Positions 12,643-43,492 are shown, counted from the first letter of the stretch. The stretch: DNA of 64,000 nucleotides from Bryobacterales bacterium (GCA_965217195.1 CBDCHL010000003.1:157260-221259), one strand, 5' to 3'. Notes: generated from the sequence alone by a model not told the origin. Translations and numbers: made by a program.

Positions 12643-13739
12643 TACTGAGTCTCGCATAATATACTGTCAATCGAGACAAAGAGAAGACTGTTTCCAGAAA
12701 GCGGTAATCAAGCGCGGTTTGCGGCGCATTCGCCGCAGCGCTTTGCGGGCGCGCTCGTCGAGTTCCCAGTAGTCCTTCGGGCAGACGTTGGGCAACTCGT
12801 GCTGCTTCCAGTACGCCCAAATGTATTCCACCGGGTTCAACTCCGGCGCATAGGGCGGCAAGTACTCCGTTGCGATGTGATCCTCGGAGAGCTGGATGAA
12901 CTCCCGCACCAGGCGGCTGCGGTGCGCCGGCAGCCGGTCCCAGACGATCAGCAGTGGGCCGTCGATGTGGCGCACCAAAGCCTTCAGGAAGTCGATGACC
13001 TCCAGCTCGCCGATCGCGCCGGGATAGAGCCGGAAGTAAAAGTTGCGCAACGTCAGCCCGGCCGACACCGACAGCTTGTCCCAGTTGAAGTTGAACTCCA
13101 ACACCGGTGTCTCGCCGCGCGGCGCCCAGGTGCGGCAACGATGCGGCTTCTGACTCAATCCGCTTTCGTCGATGAAGACGATCGTACGTTCTTCTTTGCG
13201 GGCTTTTTTTTAATGGCCGGCCAAGTCTTGCGCTGCCAGCCGCGGATGGCCTCTTCGTTGCGCTCCCGCGCTTTGCCGACGGGCCGTTGCGGGCTCCAAC
13301 CGAGCGCCCGCAGGATCTTCCAGACATGGCCCTCGTGATAGCGCACGCCGAACTCGTCTCCGATCAGACGAGCGACCCGCGGACAGCTCCACAGCGGCGT
13401 CGGGAAGCCGTGCGCCTCGGGGCCTTCCAGCAGCAACGCCTCGAGGCGTTCGAGCTGCGCGGCGTCCAACAGCGGCTTACGGCCGGCGCGGCCGGCCTGG
13501 CGCAACCCGGCTTCGCCGTCACGCCGGTATCGTCGCAGCCACTCGCTGACGCTTTGCCGCGCGACCTTCAATCGCCTCGCTGTCTCGGACTGACTACAGC
13601 CTTGCTCGACCAACCGGATCGCTTTGAAACGGCGCTTCTCCAGGGCCTCGAAATCCCGCCGTACGCCTTTTGTATTTCCCATACATACAAAGACGTACGT
13701 ACCCCAAAAAGGTGTCACTTTATTTTGCGAGATTCAATA
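12643..13739 (-). mobile_element. IS630-family insertion sequence, copy 1 (1093 bp between TA duplications)
   Basis: Imperfect terminal inverted repeats CTGAGTCTCGCATAATATACTG / (rc) TTGAATCTCGCAAAATAAAGTG. It is flanked by TA within a CTAG target (c-TA-[IS]-TA-g). It is identical to 42396..43492 wherever compared. Confidence 0.9.
12667..13682 (-). CDS. IS630-family transposase (HTH + DDE_3), two frames joined at an A8 slippery run
   Basis: The upstream frame is MGNTKGVRRDFEALEKRRFKAIRLVEQGCSQSETARRL...WPAIKKK. The downstream frame is (K)ARKEERTIVFIDESGLSQKPHRCRTWAPRG...VWDRLPAHRS...YAPELNPVEYIW. The frames overlap at A8 (plus-strand T8, 13204-13211). Confidence 0.85.
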
Positions 13740-31334: not shown

Positions 31335-32819
31335 ATGCGGGAATTCACGCTTTGGTTCAGCGACAACGGCGTCGCCGTCGGGGTCCTCGCCGCCTTCATT
31401 GGCCTGATGATTCTGTCGGCCTGGCGGGCCAACCGGCGTCATGAAAGCCGGCCCGGCCCGGTAGTGATCGCCGTTTCTTTTTACGCCACTTTCCTCAGTA
31501 CGAATACGTTCCTCGGCCAATCGGGCTTCGGATACAAGGTCGGCGTCGCGTGGCTGCTGGCCGGGCTGGTGTTCTTGCTGTGCGCGATTGTCGCCTGGTT
31601 TGTCGTCGCCAAACCGATGATTCTCGACGCCCGAGCGGTGCTGGGGGACGACTTGGATTTGGATCGCGTCACCGTCCCGGCCTACTTGCGAAAAAAGTTC
31701 GGAGGGGACGCGATCGGGTACATCAGCGCCGGCGTCGTCTTTTTCGCGTCACTGCTTTACATGCTCGCGGTGTTTAAGGGAATCGGGCACATCGTAAGCC
31801 GGATCTTGAACCTCTCGTATGAAACGGCGGTCATGACGGTTTTCGTGCTCGTGGTGGCTTACACGTCGTGGGGGATGATTCGGGCAATTCTGCACACAGA
31901 CACCGTGCAGGGCGGCATCATGGTCCTGGGTGTGTTTGCGCTATTCGCGGCCTGTGTCATGCATGCCGACTGGAACGCCGTCGCCGCGAGCCCGGATCTT
32001 GACGCCGCGGGTGCGCCGCTCGCGGGCAGGCTTCTTTCCTGGGACGTCCTGATGTCGCCGTTGTTGATCGTCGGGCTGTCGCTCAGTACGGGAATCAAGA
32101 TGATGGTCGCGCCTCGCTTGGTGGTGCGCTTTTTGATGTTTCGACACGCCTCGGGCCGGCAGATTCAACAAGCGAAATGGCTGACGGTCGGCTTGATGGG
32201 AATCACCGTGCCGATGCTTTTTTCGCTCGGAATTCTCGCCCACGGAATCGTCCCACAAGCTGAGTCGCAGTTCTTCTTTCAGAATACGGATCAGGTGGTT
32301 CCCTACTTGGTGGACCGACTGTTCGGGAGTTTCTGGGGCGCGGTGTTGCTGGGGAGTTTTCTTTGCGCCGCGCTGTCGTCGATTGACTCCGTGCTCCACG
32401 TGGCCGGTTCGGCGTTGGTGGTCGACGGATGGGCTCAATGGCGTCGGTCGGCGACGGAAGCCGCGATCGACAAACTGCAGCGCTGGGTCATGATCCCCGT
32501 GGCGGCGCTCCCGGCTTTATTGGCGCTCGACCCGCCCGACGACGTGGTTCCGCTGACGGCGCTTTCAGGAGCGCTGTTCGGGGCCTGTTTCTTTCCGACT
32601 TTGGTCATGAGCCTGTGGTGGAGGCGAGGCCGGCGAGCAGTGTTGGCGTCGATCGTCGGGGGCGGAGTGGCGGTTACCGTTTGGTCGGCCGGGCTGGGCG
32701 CGGCAGTGGGTTTGCCGGCGATTCATCCTGTTTTCGCGGGATTGATTGTTGCGGCGGTTGCCTATGCCTTTACGCCCGGGACGGCAAGCGACGAGAGATC
32801 TCGGACCGGGGGCACGTAA
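31335..32819 (+). CDS. polytopic membrane transporter, sodium:solute symporter-like
   Basis: 494 aa with about 12-13 hydrophobic segments. The family call rests on overall topology only. Confidence 0.5.
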   Translation: MREFTLWFSDNGVAVGVLAAFIGLMILSAWRANRRHESRPGPVVIAVSFYATFLSTNTFLGQSGFGYKVGVAWLLAGLVFLLCAIVAWFVVAKPMILDARAVLGDDLDLDRVTVPAYLRKKFGGDAIGYISAGVVFFASLLYMLAVFKGIGHIVSRILNLSYETAVMTVFVLVVAYTSWGMIRAILHTDTVQGGIMVLGVFALFAACVMHADWNAVAASPDLDAAGAPLAGRLLSWDVLMSPLLIVGLSLSTGIKMMVAPRLVVRFLMFRHASGRQIQQAKWLTVGLMGITVPMLFSLGILAHGIVPQAESQFFFQNTDQVVPYLVDRLFGSFWGAVLLGSFLCAALSSIDSVLHVAGSALVVDGWAQWRRSATEAAIDKLQRWVMIPVAALPALLALDPPDDVVPLTALSGALFGACFFPTLVMSLWWRRGRRAVLASIVGGGVAVTVWSAGLGAAVGLPAIHPVFAGLIVAAVAYAFTPGTASDERSRTGGT

Positions 32820-32870
32820 TTCGGCCACATGGAATGGACGACTTCACTAAACATAGTCACAATTAGTCAT

Positions 32871-33329
32871 ATGGAAACTGCGGTGAAAATCACCGAGTTG
32901 AAGGCTCGTCTAAGCGCCTATTTGCGGCTGGTTCGGGCGGGCGGCGCAATCATCGTCAAGGACCGCGATACGCCGGTCGCACGGCTGGTTCCCTATCAAC
33001 AGCCGAAGCGCCTAAGAATTCGCCCACACACACGCTCGGTGCGCGAAATCGACGAAATGCTCAAAGCGCGAACGAAGGATGTCGACCTGCCGCCCCGCTC
33101 GACGGACGAAGTTCTGAAGGAAACCCGAAAGGATTATTTCGATAAATGGCCGGCGTCGCAGTCTACCTCGGGGGAAAACGGGGGGGGGGAACCGGGACAG
33201 CCTCGATTGCGATTGCTGAGAATTCAGTGGCCGCCCACTAGAGGCTTTCGATTCAGCAGATTAGCAGAGGTTCATCGGATATTTGCTGATGTCCGGCACC
33301 ATGGTAGGAATCAGTCGAGATCAATGTAA
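32871..33329 (+). CDS. Phd/YefM-type antitoxin with a 3' end replaced by repeat sequence
   Basis: It begins METAVKITELKARLSAYLRLVRAGGAIIVKDRDTPVARLVPY, a typical antitoxin N-terminus. From about 33171 the ORF is translated repeat-B sequence. The same string appears in ORF 34409..34699. Confidence 0.6.
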   Translation: METAVKITELKARLSAYLRLVRAGGAIIVKDRDTPVARLVPYQQPKRLRIRPHTRSVREIDEMLKARTKDVDLPPRSTDEVLKETRKDYFDKWPASQSTSGENGGGEPGQPRLRLLRIQWPPTRGFRFSRLAEVHRIFADVRHHGRNQSRSM

Positions 33330-33379
33330 TCAATGAGTTGGGCAACCTCATTGATGAAATCGAGGCTGTCCAGGTTTCC
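33188..33379 (+). repeat. inverted-repeat element, family B, copy A (192-bp core; arms extend to about 33170-33397)
   Basis: The terminal IRs are GGAACCGGGACAGCCTCGATT ... AATCGAGGCTGTCCAGGTTTCC. The outer subrepeats are G-rich on the left and C-rich on the right. It is about 93% identical to 34428-34619. Confidence 0.7.
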
Positions 33380-33408
33380 GCCCCCCGGTTTCCGCCCTAA
33401 CGGAGGCT

Positions 33409-34122
33409 CTAACACTCTTCCACGTCGAAAGTGACTTGCTCAATCCGTCTAACGGCCGTCGTTGAGTCACGGTCACTCATCTCGACGCCCTCGACAACTT
33501 TCTCGCTGTGTTTCCATAGGAACTTCGCGAGTGCCAAAAAGCCATTATAAACAACATGATTGCGAAAATACAGCGAAACGCTATCCCCGAACGCCCCCTC
33601 CGTTGTGGACTCTTTCGGGAGACCGATAACCACACGGTTGGGTGACGCCATGAGAATGTTTATGGGAAAGAACTGCTGTCTATGGTATATACCAATTTCC
33701 ACATTTGCTTTTCCCGCAAATTCGTGGATTAACCTTGTAACGTGCGGCTTGTCCAAATCGCTGCGAAGAACCACAATGCGGCGATACGCGTCGAATCCGT
33801 CGTCTCGTAACATACGGATTGTTCTGTCAAAATAATTGTGGCGGTCGAGTTCTTGATTGTTATAAGCGGCGTACACAAAAACGCTCTCGCCTTCTGCGCT
33901 TTTGAGCACCCGGTCAAGTAGATCTAAAGTCGGACGGTAACCGCGTGCCAAGAACACTGCGTGGAGGCCTCTATCGGTGGCGACTATGATTGTTACGGTC
34001 AGACCAAACACCAATGCCCAGACCATAAAAACCAGGGAATCGTGGTCCACTGCTAGACTAGCTACCCCGGCAGCAGCGGTTGTTACAGCAAACGTTGCTC
34101 CGACTCGGGTTAGGATGGACAC
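33409..34122 (-). CDS. hypothetical membrane protein (two N-terminal TM helices + ~185-aa alpha/beta-looking domain)
   Basis: 237 aa. The TM segments are GATFAVTTAAAGVASLAV and LVFMVWALVFGLTVTIIVA. GC is roughly 40-48% by hand count. I recognise no family. Confidence 0.6.
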   Translation of the reverse strand: MSILTRVGATFAVTTAAAGVASLAVDHDSLVFMVWALVFGLTVTIIVATDRGLHAVFLARGYRPTLDLLDRVLKSAEGESVFVYAAYNNQELDRHNYFDRTIRMLRDDGFDAYRRIVVLRSDLDKPHVTRLIHEFAGKANVEIGIYHRQQFFPINILMASPNRVVIGLPKESTTEGAFGDSVSLYFRNHVVYNGFLALAKFLWKHSEKVVEGVEMSDRDSTTAVRRIEQVTFDVEEC

Positions 34123-34427
34123 GACGTCTCAAGAAGCGGTATCTGACGGAGCCCCTAGTGGTTTGTTCCAAAAGTGCACGGTAGTAAATCGGAGAAACGT
34201 AGCCGAATGCCGACACTTTGCCCCCGATCCCAAGTGGTTGACGCCAAAGCTTTTCCGTGCCGCGACCGTGAGGGATCGGTTCTTCGATCGCAGCCTCAGC
34301 ATCGTACGTGAATTTTCGAAAGAAAGCACTAGGGGGTCGGGGTAGGCCGTCCCTGATTATAGCCACGATTCCCGTTCCGCCGCGTGGACCGACAGCAAAC
34401 CAGCCACTGTGACGTGGATTGTGGGGC

Positions 34428-34619
34428 GGAAACCGGGACAGCCTCGATTGCGATTGCTGAGAATTCAGAGGCCGCCCACTAGAGCATTTCGATTCAGCAG
34501 ATTAGCAGAGGTTCGTCAGATGTTTGCTGATGTCCGGCACCATAGTAAGAATCAGTCGAGATCAATAGAATCAGTGAGTTGGGCAACCTCATTGATGAAA
34601 TCGAGGCTGTCCCGGTTCC
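34428..34619 (+). repeat. inverted-repeat element, family B, copy B (192-bp core; arms extend to about 34423-34655)
   Basis: The terminal IRs are GGAAACCGGGACAGCCTCGATT ... AATCGAGGCTGTCCCGGTTCC. It is followed by GGTTCCCCC x4. Confidence 0.7.
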
Positions 34620-34681
34620 CCCCCTGGTTCCCCCGCGGTTCCCCCGGTTCCCCCCGACCCGATCTCCCCCCCAAGGACTTT

Positions 34682-36259
34682 TCAGGATTCTGTGTCTAGA
34701 AGTCGAATCACTGGAGGTGTTGCACGTTGAGGACAGACCAGAATGTGGAACGGCAGCACCTTCCTGAATTCGCGGTATGCCGTCGGAATAGCCGACAGGT
34801 CGCGAGACTCGGAAGAGAGAGCTGCCCAGCTCTGTGGCCGATTCGGGAAGCTGGAAACGTTTGTCCCATCTTTTGTCCGCCAGGTGAACACGTCCTCCGG
34901 TCGGTCTGGGGCAAACTCATTTTGCTCGCAGAATGTGACTTTGCGCCATTTCGCCGCAATCAGGTCCCGCTGGCCACGACGCACGAGCATCTCAATTACG
35001 CTTCGCAGAATATACGAACTACCCCTATAGCCTTCTAGGTCTTCATCCTGAAGACGGTCAGGAATCGAGGTCGCCAGAACGTCCTCGATTCCCAAATACG
35101 GACTGGGAAAGACCGCTCCTTTCTGCCCGGCGTTCGACTCTACAAGGGCCACGAACAGTTCCTCTAGGAGCTTTTTCGCGAGTGCCTGTTCCTTCCTGAC
35201 CTCTAGAAACTTGATGATCCAGAAGATATAAGGGAAGGCCGATTCACCCCAAAAACCCCGTCTCTGAAAGTGATCGCGGATGAGCTTCTGAACGTCATCT
35301 GGCGACTTTTCGGACTTAGCTTTCCCGTCTGAAAGAAGCTCGTGACACGCAAGCGCCCCAAGCACGATGGTTGTTCTAGCGCGGAGCATCTGTCCGCCAT
35401 CGGCCCGAACGTCGCCTTCCAAGAAATCCGTTCTGGTGAGAGCCGACTTCCGAAGGAGTGCAAGATTTGCTTCGAGCTCCGCCATGACCAGTTTAAGCGA
35501 GTCCCCCCAGTGGTCCGATGGTATCGAATGTTTAATCACGTAGCGGGCGATACACGCAGCAAGAATGGACCAGCCTTCTGCCATTGCGTAGTGGTTCGCG
35601 GTCTGTTCGAATGAGTTCAGCAGATAGCTTACGATTATGAGGCTGCTAGTGATGGCATCAAGGGCATCCGACTTCTTGCTTGGGGATTCACCAAAGACAG
35701 TGCCATCGAGCACGGCAAACAGCTTCGCCTTGGGAAGCATGCTCCGCCCGTCCTCGAGATACAATTCGAGGAAGGTGCGCATGTCCGGAAGAGCCCTTGG
35801 CACGAAACGCCCTTGCGCATCGACGAACGATTTCAGAAGTGAATCCCTGCCGATCACCTCCAGATGGGCGTACTGACGGTTCTTCCGTACGTTGTCCTCG
35901 TTGCGATCGCTGATCTGAACCCTGACCGGGTCGGTGATTGTGCCGTTCGTGACAAGGTAGGCCTTGTGCGTCTTAGATTTGTTCACGCCCGGATAGTTGA
36001 TCGGTAGTTCCACCAACTCATCAATCTCTCCCTTGATGCTGCGCCACTCCCTCAAGTCCACATCGCCGGTTTTGGTCTGGTAGCCGTGATATTCGACGTC
36101 AGGACCCTTCGTAATGATGTCCTTGCCCTGTTCCATCGGCCCATGAGAGGAGGAGTAGAGTACGCGGTGACGCTGGTGTATGAGCACTTGACAGAACGCT
36201 GCCTGGTAGTTACGTTCGTTGGTCTTAGTCAACCAGTTTTCGATTGCTCTCTCGATCAC
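34682..36259 (-). CDS. Mrr/PD-(D/E)xK-like nuclease N-terminal domain fused to ~370-aa unassigned domain
   Basis: 525 aa. GTG 36259 has GAGAGGAA 4 nt upstream. Residues 15-155 read ERNYQAAFCQVL..HGPMEQGKDIITKG..YHGYQTKTG...HKAYLVTNGTITDP...LEVIGRDSLL. This follows the E / D / QxK order and the trailing Mrr_cat-like strand-helix. Confidence 0.55.
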   Translation of the reverse strand: MIERAIENWLTKTNERNYQAAFCQVLIHQRHRVLYSSSHGPMEQGKDIITKGPDVEYHGYQTKTGDVDLREWRSIKGEIDELVELPINYPGVNKSKTHKAYLVTNGTITDPVRVQISDRNEDNVRKNRQYAHLEVIGRDSLLKSFVDAQGRFVPRALPDMRTFLELYLEDGRSMLPKAKLFAVLDGTVFGESPSKKSDALDAITSSLIIVSYLLNSFEQTANHYAMAEGWSILAACIARYVIKHSIPSDHWGDSLKLVMAELEANLALLRKSALTRTDFLEGDVRADGGQMLRARTTIVLGALACHELLSDGKAKSEKSPDDVQKLIRDHFQRRGFWGESAFPYIFWIIKFLEVRKEQALAKKLLEELFVALVESNAGQKGAVFPSPYLGIEDVLATSIPDRLQDEDLEGYRGSSYILRSVIEMLVRRGQRDLIAAKWRKVTFCEQNEFAPDRPEDVFTWRTKDGTNVSSFPNRPQSWAALSSESRDLSAIPTAYREFRKVLPFHILVCPQRATPPVIRLLDTES

Positions 36260-36824
36260 GCCATTCCTCTCGCTTCTTGAGCATGATTTCTCTGTATCTG
36301 CGCTGAAACAATGGGTCGGACTGCGATTGGGTCATAAGTTGACGAACACGTTCTGCCTGGTCTGGGTGGACAACAAAACGCACTGCGGAAAGATCAGGCT
36401 GACCGGACGAATCGAAATCAATCTGTACCCTTTCAAGCATTTTGAAGAATAGCTCGGCGGAGAAGGGCTGTCCCGCAGCGTCGATTTGGTTGCCAACCCG
36501 TGCCGTCGCCTCGCTAGTCTTCCGAAGGATCATCTCGTGCATGGTTTGAATCTGAAGTTCGACAGATTTCCGCTGGCTCTCGATAAGCGCATCTACCCCA
36601 CGCTCGATGATTGCCGACCGCTCAACCTCGCATGGAATCGCCGTAATCTCTGGAGTTGACTCCTCCACGTGCCCGTCGACATCACCCGAAGTGAATCTTC
36701 CTCCCTCAAAATACGGCGTGGCTTTGATCGCACCTATCAACGGGTCGGCGCGAACCTGCTGTCGAAACTCAAACTCGGCCAACCTTAACAAACGGCCTTT
36801 CAACGTGGGGAAATCGGGCAGCAT
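36225..36824 (-). CDS. hypothetical protein, upstream partner overlapping the nuclease-like gene by 35 nt
   Basis: 199 aa. ATG 36824 is the first start after an in-frame stop at 36942-36944. I recognise no family. It ends ...MLKKREEWRDRESNRKLVD. Confidence 0.55.
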   Translation of the reverse strand: MLPDFPTLKGRLLRLAEFEFRQQVRADPLIGAIKATPYFEGGRFTSGDVDGHVEESTPEITAIPCEVERSAIIERGVDALIESQRKSVELQIQTMHEMILRKTSEATARVGNQIDAAGQPFSAELFFKMLERVQIDFDSSGQPDLSAVRFVVHPDQAERVRQLMTQSQSDPLFQRRYREIMLKKREEWRDRESNRKLVD

Positions 36825-37024
36825 CGTTCCGCGTATCGAACCAATCTGATTCTCGTCGAGTCTCCGACTGAGAGTAACAGACGGGGAAGTTGGAGGGTAG
36901 TCGGAAGGGAAGGTCGAGGGCGCCTTGCCCCGGCGCGAATTCTAAGCCGGCCGCATAAGCGGAAACCAGCCGGAATACGCGTGACGCGGTCCGGGAGGCT
37001 CACCGAGGTCGTTGACCCGGGCCG

Positions 37025-37482
37025 CTAGAGAGGAACCGGGACGGTTTCGAGGATTTCTTCGAGGGCTTGGGTGCTGCGCTCGCCGGCGTGGCCGCTTCCA
37101 AACCGCGTGTCGGGTGCGGAGCGATGGGCGAACACGGGAACAGCCAGCCGTTTCACGTGGTGCGGCGTGCAGTAATCCAGCCCCTCCATTAACGCCAGCG
37201 CCTGCGCGGCCCGGTAGAGCGCGATCGATCCTCGCGGGCTTACGCCCAGCGCCAGCCGTTCGTGATCGCGGGTTTTCTCTACGATTGCCATGAGGTAATC
37301 GACGACGGCGTCATCGACGCGCACTTGCTCGACCTGCGCCTGTAGCTCGGCAACGTCGTGCGCTTCGGCGACCGGCTCGACGCGGCTTGCGAGCTCAGCG
37401 TGGTTCGACCGCAGAATCTCGCGCTCGCTCGCCGGGTCCGGATAACCCATCTGAATCCGCATTAAGAAACGGTCCAACTGCG
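37025..37482 (-). pseudogene. 3' fragment of a second, diverged moxR gene
   Basis: 152 C-terminal codons are colinear with 40134-40591 and differ at 4 amino acids. The homology starts at the stop codon and ends abruptly at 37482. The upstream part of ORF 37025..37627 is unrelated to MoxR. Confidence 0.85.
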
Positions 37483-37675
37483 CAACCCTTGCCAGCAAGC
37501 GAGGATTCAGCCCCGCGACGACTTGCCTACGACCGGCAAACTCGAAAGTGTTGGTGGAATCGGGAACCCTTTTTTCACCACGACAGCGGTCGCGATACAA
37601 TGTTGTCCTGCCCACCATTTCAGGCACAACTTCGACAACGAATCGTCACTGAAAGATTACTAGAATGTCCTCGTC

Positions 37676-39067
37676 ATGAACTCACTCATCCGCACCGTTC
37701 TCCTGTTACTTGCCCTCACTGCCCTATCAGTGGCCCAAGACTGGCCGCCGAACGTGGTTGTTATTTTCGGCGACGACATTGGCTACGGCGACGTCGGCGT
37801 CTTCGGACACCCCACGATCCAGACTCCCAACCTGGATCGCATGGCACACGAAGGCCAAAAGTGGACCAGTTTTTATGCGGCGGCGAGTGTCTGTACGCCA
37901 AGCCGTGCGGGGCTGCTCACCGGCCGGCTCCCCGTCCGCAGCGGCATGATGCACGGTCGCATCCGAGTCCTTTATCCCGAGTCTTGGAGCGGCCTGCAAC
38001 AGAGCGAAGTGACCATCGCGGAGATGCTCAAGCAGAAGAACTACGCAACCCGGCATGTGGGCAAATGGCACCTCGGCCACCTCCCAGACTATCTGCCAAC
38101 GAAGCAGGGGTTCGACTCCTATTTCGGCATTCCGTATTCGAACGACATGGACGCGACCGAACCAACCGCGGCCGCAAGGAGACACGCGCTCCTCAACCCG
38201 ACGAAGATCGACTACTGGAACGTCCCGCTGATGCGCGACGAGGAAGTAATCGAGCGCCCAGCCAACCAATTTACGATCACAAGACGATACACCGAAGCAG
38301 CGGTCATGTTTATTGATGCCAACAAGGAAAAGCCCTTCTTTCTCTACTTCGCCCACACGATGATGCACGTGCCGCTGTTTCGCTCGAAAGCGTTCGAGGG
38401 GCGCAGCATAGCCGGCATTTTCGGGGACGCGATGGAAGAGGTGGACTGGTCGGTCGGGCAGGTGCTCGACACCATCCGCAAGCACGGTCTTGAGGAAAAC
38501 ACGCTGGTCGTCTTTACTTCCGACAACGGCCCTTGGCTGACCTTCGGCACACACGGCGGATCGGCCGGTCCGCTCAAGGAAGGGAAGGGCTCGACCTGGG
38601 AAGGCGGCATGCGCGAACCAACGATCATGTGGTGGCCGGGCACGATCAAGGCCGGCACGACCGTCAACGAGATGGGCTCGACACTCGACCTAATTGCGAC
38701 CATCGCAAGCATCAGCGGGACAAAATTGCCCGACGACCGTAAGCTGGACAGCTACGATCTAACGCCGGCGATGAAAGGTACCGGACCGAGTCCGCGTAAG
38801 GAAATGTTCTACTGGCGCGGTACTGAGTTATTCGCCGCCCGCATGGGTGACTACAAGGCGCACTTCTTCACGCGGACCGGCTACCGCGACCGCGGCGAGA
38901 CGCGGCAGACCCCGCCGCTGCTCTATCACCTGGGCCACGACCCTGGCGAAAAGCATGACATTTCGCGCGAGAACCCGGACATCATCGCCAGGATCACGGA
39001 GATGGCTCGCAAGCACAAAAGTGGCATTGACGAGGTCGAGAACCAGTTGGCGAAGATCAATCGCTAG
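37676..39067 (+). CDS. arylsulfatase-family sulfatase, secreted
   Basis: A signal peptide is followed by the formylglycine motif CTPSRAGLLTGR, with DDIGYGD and GKWHLG. Confidence 0.85.
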   Translation: MNSLIRTVLLLLALTALSVAQDWPPNVVVIFGDDIGYGDVGVFGHPTIQTPNLDRMAHEGQKWTSFYAAASVCTPSRAGLLTGRLPVRSGMMHGRIRVLYPESWSGLQQSEVTIAEMLKQKNYATRHVGKWHLGHLPDYLPTKQGFDSYFGIPYSNDMDATEPTAAARRHALLNPTKIDYWNVPLMRDEEVIERPANQFTITRRYTEAAVMFIDANKEKPFFLYFAHTMMHVPLFRSKAFEGRSIAGIFGDAMEEVDWSVGQVLDTIRKHGLEENTLVVFTSDNGPWLTFGTHGGSAGPLKEGKGSTWEGGMREPTIMWWPGTIKAGTTVNEMGSTLDLIATIASISGTKLPDDRKLDSYDLTPAMKGTGPSPRKEMFYWRGTELFAARMGDYKAHFFTRTGYRDRGETRQTPPLLYHLGHDPGEKHDISRENPDIIARITEMARKHKSGIDEVENQLAKINR

Positions 39068-39285: not shown

Positions 39286-39999
39286 TCATAACCAGCTCAG
39301 GACTTCTTGGGTGCTCATTGTGAATCCCCAGACACGTCGAAACATGAGCATTGCGGCCTCGTGGCTGCCGGTGTCGATGGTCGTGCAAGCGTCCTCGGCG
39401 ATGATCACGTGGAAGCCCCGGTCCGCGGCGTCGAGGGCCGTCGTGAAGACGCACATGTCGGAGGCAATCCCGGCGATTACAAGGGTCTCGATCTTCATGT
39501 TGCGAAGGTGGAGATCGATGCCTGTTGAGTGGAAAGCGCTGCTGGTGTTCTTATCGAGAAGCAGTTCATCGGGTCGAGGCTCGAGCCGAGTGTCGATTTG
39601 ATGGTCGGGTGTGCCTGTCGCAGCCAAGTGACCGGATTGGCCGTGCGAGGCGGCGAGTGCAGTCTGCTCACGGCTCCGGCGGCGTTCGGCCAGATCCGAA
39701 CCGTCAGGTAGCAGACTGCCGTGGCGGGTAAAGATCACGCGCCGCCCGAGACGGCGGAACTCCGAGAGGAGCGCCTGCGTCTGATCGAGCGCCTTCTCGG
39801 CCCGGCCACGATAGGCGTCGAAGAGCTCGGGGTCGTGCAACTTCAAACTGTGCACGAGCGCGCCGGTGGGAGCAATGCAGTAGTTCTGCATGTCAATGAC
39901 GCACAACGCCGTCCTTTCTTGATCCAGCGATAGGTTGAAACCCAGGCAGGAGTTAGGCCATTGGTCGTCGTCCAAGAAACGGATGGTCTTACCGGGCAT
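39286..39999 (-). CDS. isochorismatase-family cysteine hydrolase
   Basis: It has LCVIDMQNYC and LVIAGIASDMCVFTTALDAADRGFHV. Confidence 0.75.
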   Translation of the reverse strand: MPGKTIRFLDDDQWPNSCLGFNLSLDQERTALCVIDMQNYCIAPTGALVHSLKLHDPELFDAYRGRAEKALDQTQALLSEFRRLGRRVIFTRHGSLLPDGSDLAERRRSREQTALAASHGQSGHLAATGTPDHQIDTRLEPRPDELLLDKNTSSAFHSTGIDLHLRNMKIETLVIAGIASDMCVFTTALDAADRGFHVIIAEDACTTIDTGSHEAAMLMFRRVWGFTMSTQEVLSWL

Positions 40000-40133
40000 A
40001 AAGGTTTCCTTCCAGGAGCAAGGTTATCGGAAGGCCGGGCCGGGTAGCAAGAGCCGTATCTGCGGGGTCTCACGCAACTCTCTCTTGATCAGAGAATTGG
40101 ACAATTGGCCCGTGTTGTCGCCATGACTCTTCG

Positions 40134-41093
40134 CTAGAGAGGGACCGGCACCGTTTCTAGAATCTCTTCGAGCGCTTGGGTGCTTCGCTCGCCGGCGTGG
40201 CCGCTTCCGAACCGCGTGTCGGGTGCGGAGCGATGGGCGAAGACGGGAACAGCCAGCCGTTTCACGTGGTGCGGCGTGCAGTAATCCAGCCCTTCCATTA
40301 ACGCCAGCGCCTGGGCGGCCCGGTAGAGCGCAATCGAACCTCGCGGGCTTACGCCCAGCGCCAGCCGTTCGTGATCGCGCGTCTTCTCTACGATTGCCAT
40401 CAGGTAATCGACAACGGCGTCATCGACGCGCACTTGCTCGACCTGCGCCTGTAGCTCGGTAACGTCGTGCGCTTCGGCGACCGGCTCGACGCGGCTTGCA
40501 AGCGCAGGGTGGTTCGTCCGCAAGATCTCGCGCTCGCTCGCCGGGTCCGGATAACCCATCTGAATCCGCATCAAGAAACGGTCCAACTGCGACTCCGGCA
40601 GCGGATACGTCCCGTGATACTCGATCGGGTTTTGGGTGGCGACCACCATAAAGGGTTCCGGCAGCGGGTACGAGCGCCTTTCGATGGTAACCTGACGCTC
40701 ATTCATGGCTTCGAGCAGAGCGGATTGCGTTTTGGGCGTGGTGCGATTGATTTCGTCGGCCAACAGAACATTGGTGAAGATCGGACCAGGCTTGAACTCG
40801 AATTCCTCGCGTCCCGCGCTATAAACGGTAACGCCCAAGACATCGCTCGGCAGCATGTCGCTGGTGAACTGGATACGGTGAAAACTGCACGCAAGACTCT
40901 TCGCCAGCGTCTGGGCCAGCGTCGTCTTGCCCACGCCTGGAACGTCTTCGATCAGGAGATGACCGCGCGCGAGCAAGCAAACGACCGCCAGCCGAACGGC
41001 TTCCGGTTTCCCGCGAATCACCGAGGCAAGCGACTGCTCGATAGCCGCCGCCTTCTCGAAAACCGCCGGGACTGTCGATGGTTCGACCGCCAT
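40134..41093 (-). CDS. MoxR-family AAA+ ATPase
   Basis: Walker A is DVPGVGKT and Walker B is LLADEINR. It also has VVATQNPIEYHGTYPLPESQLDRF. Confidence 0.9.
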   Translation of the reverse strand: MAVEPSTVPAVFEKAAAIEQSLASVIRGKPEAVRLAVVCLLARGHLLIEDVPGVGKTTLAQTLAKSLACSFHRIQFTSDMLPSDVLGVTVYSAGREEFEFKPGPIFTNVLLADEINRTTPKTQSALLEAMNERQVTIERRSYPLPEPFMVVATQNPIEYHGTYPLPESQLDRFLMRIQMGYPDPASEREILRTNHPALASRVEPVAEAHDVTELQAQVEQVRVDDAVVDYLMAIVEKTRDHERLALGVSPRGSIALYRAAQALALMEGLDYCTPHHVKRLAVPVFAHRSAPDTRFGSGHAGERSTQALEEILETVPVPL

Positions 41094-42395: not shown

Positions 42396-43492
42396 TACTG
42401 AGTCTCGCATAATATACTGTCAATCGAGACAAAGAGAAGACTGTTTCCAGAAAGCGGTAATCAAGCGCGGTTTGCGGCGCATTCGCCGCAGCGCTTTGCG
42501 GGCGCGCTCGTCGAGTTCCCAGTAGTCCTTCGGGCAGACGTTGGGCAACTCGTGCTGCTTCCAGTACGCCCAAATGTATTCCACCGGGTTCAACTCCGGC
42601 GCATAGGGCGGCAAGTACTCCGTTGCGATGTGATCCTCGGAGAGCTGGATGAACTCCCGCACCAGGCGGCTGCGGTGCGCCGGCAGCCGGTCCCAGACGA
42701 TCAGCAGTGGGCCGTCGATGTGGCGCACCAAAGCCTTCAGGAAGTCGATGACCTCCAGCTCGCCGATCGCGCCGGGATAGAGCCGGAAGTAAAAGTTGCG
42801 CAACGTCAGCCCGGCCGACACCGACAGCTTGTCCCAGTTGAAGTTGAACTCCAACACCGGTGTCTCGCCGCGCGGCGCCCAGGTGCGGCAACGATGCGGC
42901 TTCTGACTCAATCCGCTTTCGTCGATGAAGACGATCGTACGTTCTTCTTTGCGGGCTTTTTTTTAATGGCCGGCCAAGTCTTGCGCTGCCAGCCGCGGAT
43001 GGCCTCTTCGTTGCGCTCCCGCGCTTTGCCGACGGGCCGTTGCGGGCTCCAACCGAGCGCCCGCAGGATCTTCCAGACATGGCCCTCGTGATAGCGCACG
43101 CCGAACTCGTCTCCGATCAGACGAGCGACCCGCGGACAGCTCCACAGCGGCGTCGGGAAGCCGTGCGCCTCGGGGCCTTCCAGCAGCAACGCCTCGAGGC
43201 GTTCGAGCTGCGCGGCGTCCAACAGCGGCTTACGGCCGGCGCGGCCGGCCTGGCGCAACCCGGCTTCGCCGTCACGCCGGTATCGTCGCAGCCACTCGCT
43301 GACGCTTTGCCGCGCGACCTTCAATCGCCTCGCTGTCTCGGACTGACTACAGCCTTGCTCGACCAACCGGATCGCTTTGAAACGGCGCTTCTCCAGGGCC
43401 TCGAAATCCCGCCGTACGCCTTTTGTATTTCCCATACATACAAAGACGTACGTACCCCAAAAAGGTGTCACTTTATTTTGCGAGATTCAATA
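42396..43492 (-). mobile_element. IS630-family insertion sequence, copy 2
   Basis: It has the same sequence and orientation as copy 1, at an offset of 29753 bp. All ORF translations in the track are identical. It is flanked by TA in a CTAG target (aaac-TA-[IS]-TA-ggcg). Confidence 0.9.
42420..43435 (-). CDS. IS630-family transposase (copy 2), two frames joined at the A8 run
   Basis: The translations are identical to copy 1. T8 on the plus strand is at 42957-42964. Confidence 0.85.

What the first reader, a model, noticed from the sequence alone, without database searches (positions are those of the whole stretch)
33170..37024. Lower-GC ~3.9-kb block wedged between a broken antitoxin gene and a broken moxR copy
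I hand-counted GC on sample 60-nt lines. Inside the block: 33661-33720 at 38%, 35041-35100 at 53%, 35641-35700 at 53%, 36421-36480 at 53%. In the flanks: 32701-32760 at 58%, 37081-37140 at 72%. All three credible ORFs in the block are on the minus strand and have no assignable family apart from the nuclease-like head. The left edge is where a Phd-type antitoxin ORF stops being antitoxin and becomes translated repeat (~33171). The right edge is the stop codon of a truncated moxR copy (37025). There is no integrase or transposase inside, so the mobilisation mechanism is not evident.
Basis: partly seen in the sequence, partly recalled or inferred. Interest (0 to 1): 0.6.

Follow-up and report, generated by a model that had tools for sequence, protein, structure and literature searches.

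The report
Low-GC islet with candidate nuclease defence pair
The low-GC stretch is real, but it is a patchwork of separately acquired accessory genes rather than one inserted element, and its main cargo is an uncharacterised, widely exchanged two-gene operon (a restriction-type nuclease plus a small partner) that in other bacteria usually sits beside restriction-modification systems and is probably an anti-phage defence module.

Summary
Window 33170-37024 has 54.2% GC against 61.2% for the rest. It is the lowest-GC and most tetranucleotide-deviant 3.9-kb stretch of the 64 kb, and its genes have GC3 of 0.54-0.64 against 0.72-0.77 for host genes.

The compositional edges are 32829 (start of the Phd antitoxin gene, 10 nt after the transporter stop, where synteny with four Bryobacterales genomes ends) and about 36824 (start of ORF199). 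They are not 33170 and 37024.

The block is a mosaic of three parts:
1. An orphan Phd/YefM antitoxin gene whose 3' end runs into a 228-nt element with terminal inverted repeats.
2. A rare two-transmembrane-helix protein gene (ORF237), bracketed by two 92%-identical copies of that element. Insertion sequences (IS) have hit this gene in two same-species contigs.
3. An overlapping operon, ORF199 then ORF525, conserved across phyla. It always shows the same 35-nt overlap and always has lower GC than its flanks. In 4 of 9 contexts it lies next to restriction-modification genes.

ORF525 has an N-terminal Mrr-like PD-(D/E)xK nuclease domain followed by a large helical domain. ORF199 has no detectable relative of known function.

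No Pfam, PADLOC, NCBIfam or PHROG family covers the pair. The most likely reading is an undescribed nuclease-based defence or addiction module. This function is inferred, not shown.

The parts
32829..33169 (+). Phd/YefM-type antitoxin gene, with no toxin partner. The ORF continues to 33329 as translated repeat.
   Evidence: Pfam PhdYeFM_antitox E = 2.7e-9 and NCBIfam phd_fam. GC is 55.1% and GC3 0.59. Synteny with Bryobacterales genomes ends just upstream, at the transporter stop 32819.
33170..33397 (.). Copy A of a roughly 200-230-nt element with terminal inverted repeats (MITE-like).
   Evidence: 39-nt arms are 87% complementary with 149 nt between them. The core terminus is GGGGGGGAACCGGGACAGCCTCGATT. 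The DNA fold has z = -8.0, driven by the termini.
33409..34122 (-). ORF237: a protein with two transmembrane helices and a roughly 170-aa domain, from a rare family of unknown function.
   Evidence: Only 12 relatives were found among 1.84 billion representative proteins, 28-37% identical and of the same length. Hydrophobic N-terminus. Lowest GC (50.4%) and GC3 (0.54) in the block. Interrupted by IS elements in the same-species contigs L001 and L002.
34123..34422 (.). Spacer between ORF237 and repeat copy B, with no recognisable gene.
   Evidence: The ORFs in it have no Pfam hits at E <= 1.
34423..34660 (.). Copy B of the inverted-repeat element, same orientation as copy A. It has a tail of four GGTTCCCCC-like sub-repeats.
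   Evidence: 92% identical to copy A over 202 nt. Sequence read. No other copy in the window or in 1.14 Mb of fetched loci.
34682..36259 (-). ORF525: an N-terminal Mrr-like PD-(D/E)xK nuclease domain (about residues 1-150) and a large all-helical C-terminal domain (about 157-525).
   Evidence: AlphaFold2 pLDDT 88. Foldseek matches NucS/EndoMS (probability 0.99 and 0.93) and EcoO109I (0.84) over the first 125-136 residues. E15, D47, Q61 and K63 are invariant in 36 homologues. A remote Rhodococcus homologue passes the Pfam Mrr_cat threshold. More than 424 homologues, none with a Pfam domain.
36225..36824 (-). ORF199: small, mostly helical partner protein and first gene of the operon. Its last 35 nt overlap the ORF525 start.
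   Evidence: 96 homologues. The N-terminus MLPDF is invariant and the C-terminus REEWRDRESNRKLVD is nearly invariant. AlphaFold2 pLDDT 81 with no PDB or BFVD fold match. It lies upstream of the ORF525 homologue in 10 of 11 loci, and is truncated in the eleventh.
36225..36259 (-). 35-nt dual-coding overlap, with a GAGG Shine-Dalgarno-like sequence just upstream. This is the probable translational coupling site.
   Evidence: The same overlap length is seen in all loci, including the Rhodococcus plasmid. The nucleotide sequence is almost invariant across loci whose pair GC runs from 29 to 57%.
36825..37024 (.). Spacer with host-like GC (63%) upstream of ORF199. It presumably holds the operon promoter.
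   Evidence: GC. No sigma-70-like consensus site was found on the minus strand here.
37023..37482 (-). Duplicated 3' part of moxR. It is the left arm of a 460-bp direct repeat whose right arm is 40132-40591, inside the full moxR gene at 40134-41093.
   Evidence: 94.3% identity, 26 mismatches and no gaps. AAA_lid_2 domain only. The full copy has AAA_3 plus AAA_lid_2.

Best explanation
The block is a small accessory-gene islet in a variable region of a Bryobacterales-like (Acidobacteriota) chromosome. It was assembled from at least three separately acquired pieces.

The functional core is the operon ORF199 then ORF525 (36824 down to 34682, minus strand). This is a compact two-gene cassette that moves between phyla as just the two genes.

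ORF525 carries an Mrr-type PD-(D/E)xK nuclease domain (E15, D47, Q61-x-K63) fused to a roughly 370-residue helical domain. ORF199 is made first, and ORF525 is translated by coupling through a 35-nt overlap, so the two proteins should be produced together and probably form a complex.

My best guess at the mechanism is as follows. The helical domain, the small partner, or both keep the nuclease inactive or give it specificity. On invasion by foreign DNA or a phage cue, the nuclease cuts DNA. That would make the pair a nuclease-based anti-phage or anti-mobile-element system, acting either like a restriction enzyme or by abortive infection.

The left third of the block is unrelated baggage: an orphan Phd antitoxin clipped by a small inverted-repeat element, and a rare membrane-protein gene lying between two copies of that element. 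This is a spot where insertion sequences keep landing.

Shown: the composition, the anatomy, conservation of the pair and its overlap, the nuclease fold and motif, and the neighbourhoods. Inferred: complex formation, regulation, the defence role and the route of acquisition.
For: Foreign composition:
- GC, GC3 and tetranucleotide measures all mark the block as atypical.

Pair conservation:
- More than 424 ORF525 homologues and 96 ORF199 homologues.
- The two genes are adjacent, with the identical 35-nt overlap, in Acidobacteriota, Thermodesulfobacteriota, Elusimicrobia and other contigs.
- Both are recognisably present on a Rhodococcus plasmid (hhalign 98.4% and 96.9%).

Mobility as a two-gene unit:
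- Nucleotide homology to L003, L006 and L095 ends at the gene boundaries.
- The flanks differ in every locus.
- The pair has lower GC than its flanks in 9 of 9 loci.

Defence-type neighbourhoods:
- Type I restriction-modification (L003).
- Methylase with a ResIII helicase, plus a PIN/RHH toxin-antitoxin pair (L006/7).
- Methylase with RE_XcyI, plus ScoMcrA (L004).
- Eco57I/MmeI-type enzymes with HEPN and DUF4062-HATPase_c_4 (L016).
- ATP-dependent endonuclease with a DEAD/DEAH helicase (L013).
- HicB (L017).

Nuclease domain:
- AlphaFold2 pLDDT 88, and Foldseek matches to NucS/EndoMS and EcoO109I.
- Invariant E15, D47, Q61 and K63.
- The Rhodococcus homologue scores 22.8 on Pfam Mrr_cat, above the 21 cut-off.

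Mosaic nature:
- Two repeat copies flank only ORF237.
- ORF237 is disrupted by different IS elements in two contigs that are 99.9% identical to the window, while the pair stays intact there.
Against: - There is no experimental evidence, and no match to any of the 5027 PADLOC models, for the window proteins or for six relatives.
- The window protein itself does not reach any Pfam nuclease model.
- Three of the nine contexts are not defence-like: L015 lies inside a CoA-metabolism cluster, L008 lies among IS fragments, and L095 has none.
- Nine contexts is a small sample, and no background rate was computed.
- No phage-borne, and only one plasmid-borne, homologue was found.
- The fold of the helical domain is unassigned; only weak TPR-like matches with E > 0.1 were found.
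- No genome with an empty site was found, so acquisition is inferred from composition and patchy distribution only.
Confidence: 0.55

Rival explanations
1. ORF199 and ORF525 form a type II toxin-antitoxin (addiction) module. ORF525 is a nuclease toxin and ORF199 is the upstream, co-translated antitoxin. The module persists as selfish DNA and stabilises the region rather than defending against phages.
For: The layout is typical of type II systems: a small gene first, an overlapping large gene second, and tight coupling. The pair sits beside other toxin-antitoxin genes: Phd in the window, PIN/RHH in L006, HicB in L017. Its distribution is patchy and its GC is low.
Against: ORF199 shows no DNA-binding or known antitoxin domain, and no toxin-antitoxin family hit exists for either protein. 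A 525-aa toxin with a 370-aa helical domain is atypical. In L095 the small gene is 5'-truncated while the large gene remains intact, which is unexpected if ORF199 were an essential antidote. This reading is not mutually exclusive with defence.
Confidence: 0.2
2. The whole block is one mobile element: a repeat-bounded composite transposon or a decayed integrative island. It inserted between the antitoxin gene and moxR and broke both.
For: The block has low GC throughout. Inverted-repeat elements are present. One edge touches a clipped Phd gene and the other a truncated moxR. IS activity is documented at this place.
Against: The two repeat copies bracket only ORF237, not the pair, and no third copy lies at the right edge (the 37032-37050 match has E = 5.9). 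Homology of the pair to other genomes stops at the gene ends. Elsewhere the pair never carries ORF237, the repeats or a moxR fragment. The moxR fragment is one arm of a repeat that encloses the sulfatase and isochorismatase genes. The Phd gene is itself low-GC. No integrase, transposase or tRNA is present.
Confidence: 0.1
3. The genes are native, and the low GC reflects their own coding constraints or weak expression rather than horizontal acquisition.
For: Same-species contigs all carry the block. No empty site was found.
Against: The third-codon-position GC is depressed, which amino-acid content cannot explain. The tetranucleotide signature is the most deviant in the window. Homologues that are 73-79% identical sit at unrelated places in other genomes, and are low-GC there too. 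Synteny with relatives stops exactly at the left edge.
Confidence: 0.05

Closest known systems
Mrr-family / type IV restriction endonucleases (Pfam Mrr_cat, PF04471; PD-(D/E)xK superfamily)
   Same: ORF525 residues 1-150 have the PD-(D/E)xK core fold. The motif is G-K-D47 ... Q61-x-K63 with an upstream glutamate (E15). From memory, this Q-x-K variant is the one typical of Mrr_cat. A remote homologue of the family passes the Mrr_cat threshold.
   Different: The nuclease domain is N-terminal, whereas in Mrr it follows a DNA-binding domain. It is followed by a 370-residue helical domain with no known relative. It needs, or at least always travels with, a small partner gene. The window protein does not itself score on Mrr_cat. 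Dependence on DNA modification is unknown.
NucS/EndoMS mismatch endonuclease (PDB 2vld, 5gke)
   Same: This is the best structural match for the N-terminal domain: Foldseek probability 0.93-0.99 and rmsd about 4 Å over about 125 residues.
   Different: The similarity is at the level of the fold only (14-16% identity; whole-protein E-values 0.5-1.4). ORF525 has no NucS N-terminal dimerisation/DNA-binding domain, and its gene context is unrelated.
Effector-plus-sensor defence proteins such as Avs/STAND, which combine an N-terminal nuclease with a C-terminal helical-repeat sensor
   Same: The overall logic of an N-terminal nuclease effector followed by a large helical, TPR-like region. Occurrence in defence islands.
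   Different: No NTPase module and no Walker A motif were seen when the sequence was read by eye. No PADLOC hit to Avs or any other model. The protein is far smaller. The resemblance is an analogy, not evidence of membership.
Type II toxin-antitoxin operons
   Same: A small upstream gene overlapping a larger downstream effector gene, patchy distribution, and residence among other toxin-antitoxin genes.
   Different: Neither protein matches a known toxin or antitoxin family. The effector is unusually large.
Miniature inverted-repeat transposable elements (MITEs)
   Same: The 33170-33397 and 34423-34660 elements are short, non-coding and have 26-39-nt terminal inverted repeats.
   Different: Only two copies are seen, 1.2 kb apart. 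No dispersed copies, no target-site duplication and no parent IS with matching termini were found.

Membership tests
PD-(D/E)xK nuclease superfamily / Mrr_cat (PF04471) | alpha-beta-beta-beta-alpha-beta core fold | tested here: met
   The AlphaFold2 model (pLDDT 88) has helix 15-28, strands 32-36, 48-51 and 57-63, a helix at 69-84 and a strand at 98-104. Foldseek matches NucS (2vld, probability 0.99), EndoMS (0.93) and EcoO109I (0.84).
PD-(D/E)xK nuclease superfamily / Mrr_cat (PF04471) | Conserved catalytic residues: D before strand 2, (E/Q)-x-K on strand 3, and an acidic residue on helix 1 | tested here: met
   E15, D47, Q61 and K63 are invariant in 36 homologues that are 40-79% identical. 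Their positions fit the predicted secondary structure.
PD-(D/E)xK nuclease superfamily / Mrr_cat (PF04471) | Sequence scores above the Pfam gathering threshold | tested here: not met
   The window protein and 35 relatives have no nuclease hit. Only the remote Rhodococcus homologue passes (22.8 bits against a cut-off of 21). It is linked to the family by hhalign at 98.4%.
PD-(D/E)xK nuclease superfamily / Mrr_cat (PF04471) | Metal-dependent DNA cleavage | not testable with these tools
   Requires biochemistry.
Type IV (modification-dependent) restriction enzyme of the Mrr type | N-terminal DNA-binding domain followed by a C-terminal Mrr_cat domain in a single polypeptide | tested here: not met
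   The nuclease domain is N-terminal, the remainder is an unassigned helical domain, and a partner gene is always present.
Known anti-phage defence systems (PADLOC-DB v2.0.0) | Component proteins match the system's HMMs | tested here: not met
   No hit at E <= 1 for ORF237, ORF525 or ORF199, and no hit at E <= 0.1 for the pair relatives tested or for two ORF237 relatives.
Defence-island-resident genes (guilt by association) | Recurrent neighbourhood of known defence genes in unrelated genomes | tested here: inconclusive
   Restriction-modification genes lie within 8 kb in 4 of 9 independent contexts, and other nuclease, helicase or toxin-antitoxin genes in 3 more. The sample is small and no background rate was computed.
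Type II toxin-antitoxin system | Antitoxin with a DNA-binding fold and a toxin from a known family | tested here: not met
   No Pfam or NCBIfam hit for either protein, and no PDB fold match for ORF199.
Type II toxin-antitoxin system | Toxicity of the large protein that is neutralised by the small one | not testable with these tools
   Requires expression experiments.
MITE | Short non-coding element with terminal inverted repeats | tested here: met
   Elements of about 200-230 nt with 26-39-nt arms that are 87-100% complementary.
MITE | Many dispersed copies, target-site duplications, and a parent IS sharing the termini | tested here: inconclusive
   Only two adjacent copies were found. There are none elsewhere in the 64-kb window, in 1.14 Mb of loci or in viral contigs. 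The termini differ from the two IS elements seen here. The rest of the genome could not be searched.
Integrative genomic island | Integrase or recombinase, flanking att repeats, and often a tRNA target | tested here: not met
   The block has no recombinase domain, the window has no tRNA, and the block has no flanking direct repeats.
Phd/YefM antitoxin (PF02604) | Scores above the Pfam threshold and is paired with a downstream toxin gene | tested here: inconclusive
   The domain passes (37.1 bits against a cut-off of 29.8). No toxin gene follows; the 3' end runs into repeat copy A.

The most novel reading that the evidence does not exclude
ORF199 and ORF525 define a previously undescribed, phylum-spanning two-gene anti-phage system. 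It combines an Mrr-type nuclease fused to a novel helical sensor domain with a small partner of novel fold. The two genes are locked together by a 35-nt dual-coding overlap that is almost invariant at the nucleotide level in genomes where the pair's GC runs from 29 to 57%.
Probability: 0.4. Interest if true: 0.6.

Novelty: new variant of a known kind. Interest (0 to 1): 0.42.

Why it matters
The low-GC islet itself is ordinary: accessory genes accumulate at a variable, IS-prone site.

The value lies in the ORF199-ORF525 cassette. It is a well-conserved family with more than 400 members across soil and sediment phyla. It has no annotation in Pfam, NCBIfam, PHROGs or PADLOC, it has a clear nuclease active site, and it keeps company with restriction-modification systems.

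If it is a defence system, it adds a compact nuclease-plus-partner architecture from lineages (Acidobacteriota, Thermodesulfobacteriota, Elusimicrobia) that E. coli-centred screens do not reach. It would also supply two domains of unknown fold whose role in sensing or regulation could be studied.

Tried and rejected
Family and fold searches that found nothing:
- Rfam at E <= 1 over 32500-37700 gave no RNA family, so the repeat is not a known RNA.
- A PDB sequence-profile search with the ORF525, ORF199 and ORF237 alignments gave nothing meaningful.
- The best BFVD match of ORF199 is a 181-aa phage 'coat protein' (TM 0.38-0.41, probability 0.2). I rejected it as not significant.

Searches for the pair on mobile DNA:
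- Viral contigs, the GenBank phage collection and E. coli genomes hold no homologue of the pair.
- Plasmids hold one remote homologue.

Synteny and empty-site searches:
- The genome scan with the transporter gave four Bryobacterales/Acidobacteriia genomes, all of which lose synteny at 32819.
- The metagenome scan with the sulfatase gave 89-91% identical genes in other contexts.
- Neither scan gave an empty site.

Ideas tested and dropped:
- I tested whether the repeat is a deletion derivative of the local IS elements. The termini do not match.
- I considered that the repeats might be integron attC sites. From memory, the ends do not fit the R''/R' consensus, and only the termini pair. No attC model was available to test this.
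- The 706-710-aa homologues are not fusions of the small and large proteins. They carry a C-terminal extension.
- Codon-usage distance is confounded by gene length: the host-like moxR fragment also scores z = 7. I therefore relied on GC3.
- Two literature searches found no description of this pair.

Full report

Yes.

- The stretch 33170-37024 has 54.2% GC against 61.2% for the rest of the window. Of all equal-length windows, only 0.9% are as low, and all of those overlap this locus.
- The 500-nt profile falls to 0.49-0.56 between 33250 and 36750, and returns to 0.58-0.65 on both sides.
- The block is the strongest tetranucleotide outlier in the 64 kb (z = 4.6), and it is also high for dinucleotide relative abundance (z = 3.1).
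- Third-codon-position GC is 0.54 for ORF237, 0.58 for ORF199, 0.64 for ORF525 and 0.59 for Phd. The surrounding host genes have 0.72-0.77. The deviation is therefore not an effect of amino-acid content.

Two corrections apply to the edges.
- The Phd gene is itself low-GC (55.1%), so the tract begins at 32829. That is 10 nt after the transporter's stop codon.
- The 200 nt between ORF199 and the moxR fragment are 63% GC, so the tract ends at about 36824.

**2. Anatomy**

Reading left to right, the region contains the following features.

- A sodium:solute symporter gene at 31335-32819.
- A Phd/YefM antitoxin ORF at 32829-33329. From about 33170 its reading frame runs into a repeat.
- Repeat copy A at 33170-33397.
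- ORF237 at 33409-34122, on the minus strand.
- A 300-nt spacer.
- Repeat copy B at 34423-34660.
- ORF525 at 34682-36259, on the minus strand.
- ORF199 at 36225-36824, on the minus strand.
- A moxR 3' fragment at 37025-37627.

The two repeat copies are 92% identical over 202 nt and lie in the same orientation. Each has terminal inverted repeats of 26-39 nt (core GGGGGGGAACCGGGACAGCCTCGATT) around a 149-nt interior. Copy B ends in four GGTTCCCCC-like sub-repeats. The '96-aa ORF' at 34409-34699 is simply a translation of copy B.

If copy A is removed, the Phd frame would terminate within 0-13 codons. The exact number depends on the element's boundary, which I worked out by reading. The antitoxin gene is therefore clipped at its very end rather than halved. 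No toxin gene follows it.

**3. The ORF199-ORF525 pair is a conserved, mobile two-gene cassette**

Conservation:
- ORF525 has more than 424 homologues and ORF199 has 96. None has a Pfam domain, and almost all are annotated as hypothetical.
- In every locus fetched, the small gene precedes the large one with the same 35-nt overlap.
- The taxa named in the records include Acidobacteria, Thermodesulfobacteriota and Elusimicrobia.
- A Rhodococcus qingshengii plasmid carries a remote version with the same geometry. hhalign gives 98.4% for the large protein and 96.9% for the small one.
- One locus (L095) has a 5'-truncated small gene.

Mobility:
- Nucleotide similarity to the nearest relatives (L003, L006 and L095; 72-79%) spans 34681-36828 at most. 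That is exactly the two genes.
- The flanks are different in every genome.
- In 9 of 9 loci the pair has lower GC than its flanks, in backgrounds from 34 to 63% GC.

Neighbourhoods of the pair:
- a type I restriction-modification system (L003)
- a methylase with a ResIII helicase, plus a PIN/RHH toxin-antitoxin pair (L006/7)
- a methylase with RE_XcyI, ScoMcrA_N and an IS21 element (L004)
- two Eco57I/MmeI-type enzymes, a methylase, a HEPN protein, a recombinase and DUF4062-HATPase_c_4 (L016)
- an ATP-dependent endonuclease, an exonuclease and a 1167-aa DEAD/DEAH helicase (L013)
- HNH, XRE and HTH_17 proteins (L014)
- HicB (L017)
- IS fragments (L008)
- the middle of a CoA-metabolism cluster (L015)

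This is the pattern expected of defence-island cargo. However, nine contexts without a computed background rate are suggestive, not proof.

**4. What the proteins look like**

ORF525:
- It folds confidently (pLDDT 88, pTM 0.89).
- Residues 1-150 form an alpha/beta domain. Foldseek matches it to NucS/EndoMS (probability 0.99 and 0.93, rmsd about 4 Å over about 125 residues) and to EcoO109I (0.84). The whole-protein E-values are 0.5-1.4 because the rest of the protein finds nothing.
- In 36 homologues that are 40-79% identical, E15, G45, K46, D47, Q61 and K63 are invariant. In the model, E15 opens helix 15-28, D47 precedes strand 48-51, and Q61-x-K63 lies on strand 57-63. This is the canonical PD-(D/E)xK layout in its Q-x-K variant. 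From memory, I associate that variant with the Mrr catalytic domain.
- The Rhodococcus homologue passes Pfam Mrr_cat (22.8 bits against 21) and is annotated 'restriction endonuclease'. The window protein and its closer relatives do not pass.
- Residues 157-525 are all-helical with only weak TPR-like matches. This region carries invariant motifs such as FLEGD..DGG and WGESAFPY. I saw no Walker A motif when reading the sequence.

ORF199:
- It is mostly helical (pLDDT 81) and has no PDB or BFVD fold match.
- It has an invariant N-terminus MLPDF and a nearly invariant C-terminus REEWRDRESNRKLVD.
- The last 11 codons overlap the first 11 codons of ORF525 (MIERAIENWLT) in the +1 frame, and a GAGG Shine-Dalgarno-like sequence lies just upstream of the GTG start.
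- This 35-nt segment is almost invariant at the nucleotide level in loci whose pair GC ranges from 29% to 57%. That is consistent with dual-coding constraint and translational coupling.

**5. The rest of the block**

- ORF237 belongs to a rare family. Twelve relatives were found among 1.84 billion representative proteins, about 240 aa long and 28-37% identical.
- It has two N-terminal hydrophobic helices and no family, PDB or PADLOC match.
- One homologue lies beside the BrnT/BrnA toxin-antitoxin pair and a DUF433 gene.
- Two metagenome contigs that are 99.9% identical to the window carry the same block but with ORF237 interrupted. One has the 1095-bp IS630-like element, which also occurs twice in the window at 100% identity (TA duplication). 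The other has a 1.8-kb DDE_Tnp_1_4 element (TGTAAC duplication). The pair is untouched in both.
- ORF237 is therefore dispensable and is not part of the pair's function. Elsewhere the pair never travels with it.
- The inverted-repeat element looks like a MITE. Only these two copies were found, with none elsewhere in the window, in 1.14 Mb of fetched loci or in viral contigs. Its termini differ from both IS elements. MITE membership is therefore open.

**6. The edges and the 'broken moxR'**

- The moxR fragment is the left arm of a 460-bp direct repeat (37023-37482 matching 40132-40591; 94.3% identity, 26 mismatches, no gaps). The right arm is the 3' part of the intact moxR at 40134-41093.
- The repeat encloses the sulfatase and isochorismatase genes, and its homology stops 2 nt beyond the moxR stop codon.
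- The simplest reading is an inference. A circular fragment from a related strain, carrying part of moxR plus isochorismatase and sulfatase, integrated by a single crossover into moxR. In that case the pair was already moxR's downstream neighbour.
- The fragment thus marks an event to the right of the block, not the block's insertion scar.
- Consistent with this, the closest sulfatase homologues (89-91% identical) sit in unrelated contexts.
- On the left, four Bryobacterales/Acidobacteriia genomes keep the upstream genes (glycosyltransferase, SGL, a 410-aa protein and the transporter at 76-88% amino-acid identity). They share nothing with the window beyond 32819.
- No empty site could be found, so acquisition rests on composition and on the pair's scattered distribution.
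- The window has no tRNA. The block has no recombinase.

**7. Mechanism and rivals**

*Best explanation (about 0.55).* The pair is a nuclease-based defence or exclusion module. ORF199 and ORF525 are co-translated. The Mrr-type domain is the effector. The helical domain, ORF199, or both gate or target it. The steps after 'has a conserved nuclease active site and lives in defence neighbourhoods' are inferred.

*Rival 1 (about 0.2): a plain toxin-antitoxin addiction module.* The layout fits. However, no known toxin or antitoxin domain is present, and one locus retains the large gene with a truncated small gene.

*Rival 2 (about 0.1): a single mobile element comprising the whole block.* This is contradicted by where the repeats lie, by where homology to other genomes ends, and by the nature of the moxR repeat.

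*Rival 3 (about 0.05): native genes with odd composition.* This is contradicted by GC3, by the tetranucleotide signature and by the distribution of homologues.

**8. Comparison with known systems, and novelty**

- The N-terminal domain of ORF525 belongs, by fold and motif, to the PD-(D/E)xK/Mrr superfamily.
- The whole protein is not an Mrr-type type IV enzyme by architecture.
- The pair matches none of the 5027 PADLOC models, nor any Pfam, NCBIfam or PHROG family.
- Two literature searches found no description of it.
- It resembles effector-plus-sensor defence proteins in outline but lacks an NTPase.

I rate it a new variant of a known kind: a candidate nuclease-based defence cassette. The low-GC islet as such is ordinary. 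Interest is moderate (0.42). The family is large, clean and unannotated, and it comes from under-sampled phyla. Its function is inferred only by association and by domain.

Noticed in passing
window 36225-36259 (minus strand); same place in L003, L004, L006, L008, L014-L017, L095: The 35-nt overlap between the end of the small gene and the start of the large gene is almost invariant at the nucleotide level (RTGATMGRGAGAGCHATMGMMAAYTGGTTGAYTAR) in loci whose pair GC ranges from 29% to 57%. It is the most conserved part of both proteins.
   Followed up: partly
window 37023-37482 and 40132-40591: A 460-bp direct repeat of the moxR 3' end (94.3% identity, no gaps) brackets the sulfatase (37676-39067) and isochorismatase (39286-39999) genes. 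Homology stops 2 nt past the moxR stop codon. This looks like the footprint of a single-crossover integration of a circular fragment from a related strain.
   Followed up: partly
window 12644-13738 and 42397-43491; L001 12334-13428: A 1095-bp IS630-like element (TA target duplication, HTH and DDE_3 ORFs) is present in two 100%-identical copies in the window. A third copy lies inside ORF237 in a same-species metagenome contig, so the element is recently active.
   Followed up: yes
L002 12179-13985 (corresponds to window ~34082-34087): A different 1.8-kb IS element (DDE_Tnp_1_4 transposase, 6-bp TGTAAC duplication) is inserted in the 5' end of ORF237 in another same-species contig. This short stretch is an insertion hot spot.
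   Followed up: yes
proteins P0025-P0029 (homologues of ORF525, 706-710 aa): A subgroup that is about 61% identical carries an extra C-terminal domain of about 180 aa (it begins RLRIVFLGWGSLIWDPR...). This domain has no Pfam hit. From memory, the motif is reminiscent of gamma-glutamyl cyclotransferase/ChaC-like proteins, but this was not tested.
   Followed up: partly
L004 6433-7452 and L005 2549-3640: In the Thermodesulfobacteriota-type loci, a 339-363-aa gene with no Pfam or PADLOC hit lies immediately upstream of the small gene (overlapping its start by about 10 nt in L004). It could be a third component in that subfamily. It is absent from the other loci.
   Followed up: no
window 32819/32829; L009-L012: Gene order upstream of the transporter is conserved in four Bryobacterales/Acidobacteriia genomes. 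All similarity to the window stops at the transporter's stop codon, and nothing from 32829-64000 is found within 10 kb in those genomes. This is a rearrangement or variable-region boundary larger than the block.
   Followed up: partly
contig of P0220 (ENA ERZ27297570, no DNA held): A homologue of ORF237 lies next to the BrnT/BrnA toxin-antitoxin pair, a DUF433 gene and an HATPase_c_4 fragment. This hints that the rare membrane-protein family also lives in accessory, toxin-antitoxin-rich regions.
   Followed up: no
window 34600-34660: The right end of repeat copy B is followed by four tandem GGTTCCCCC-like motifs. Copy A has two such motifs at each end. The sub-terminal repeats could be protein-binding sites, but their role is unexplained.
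   Followed up: no
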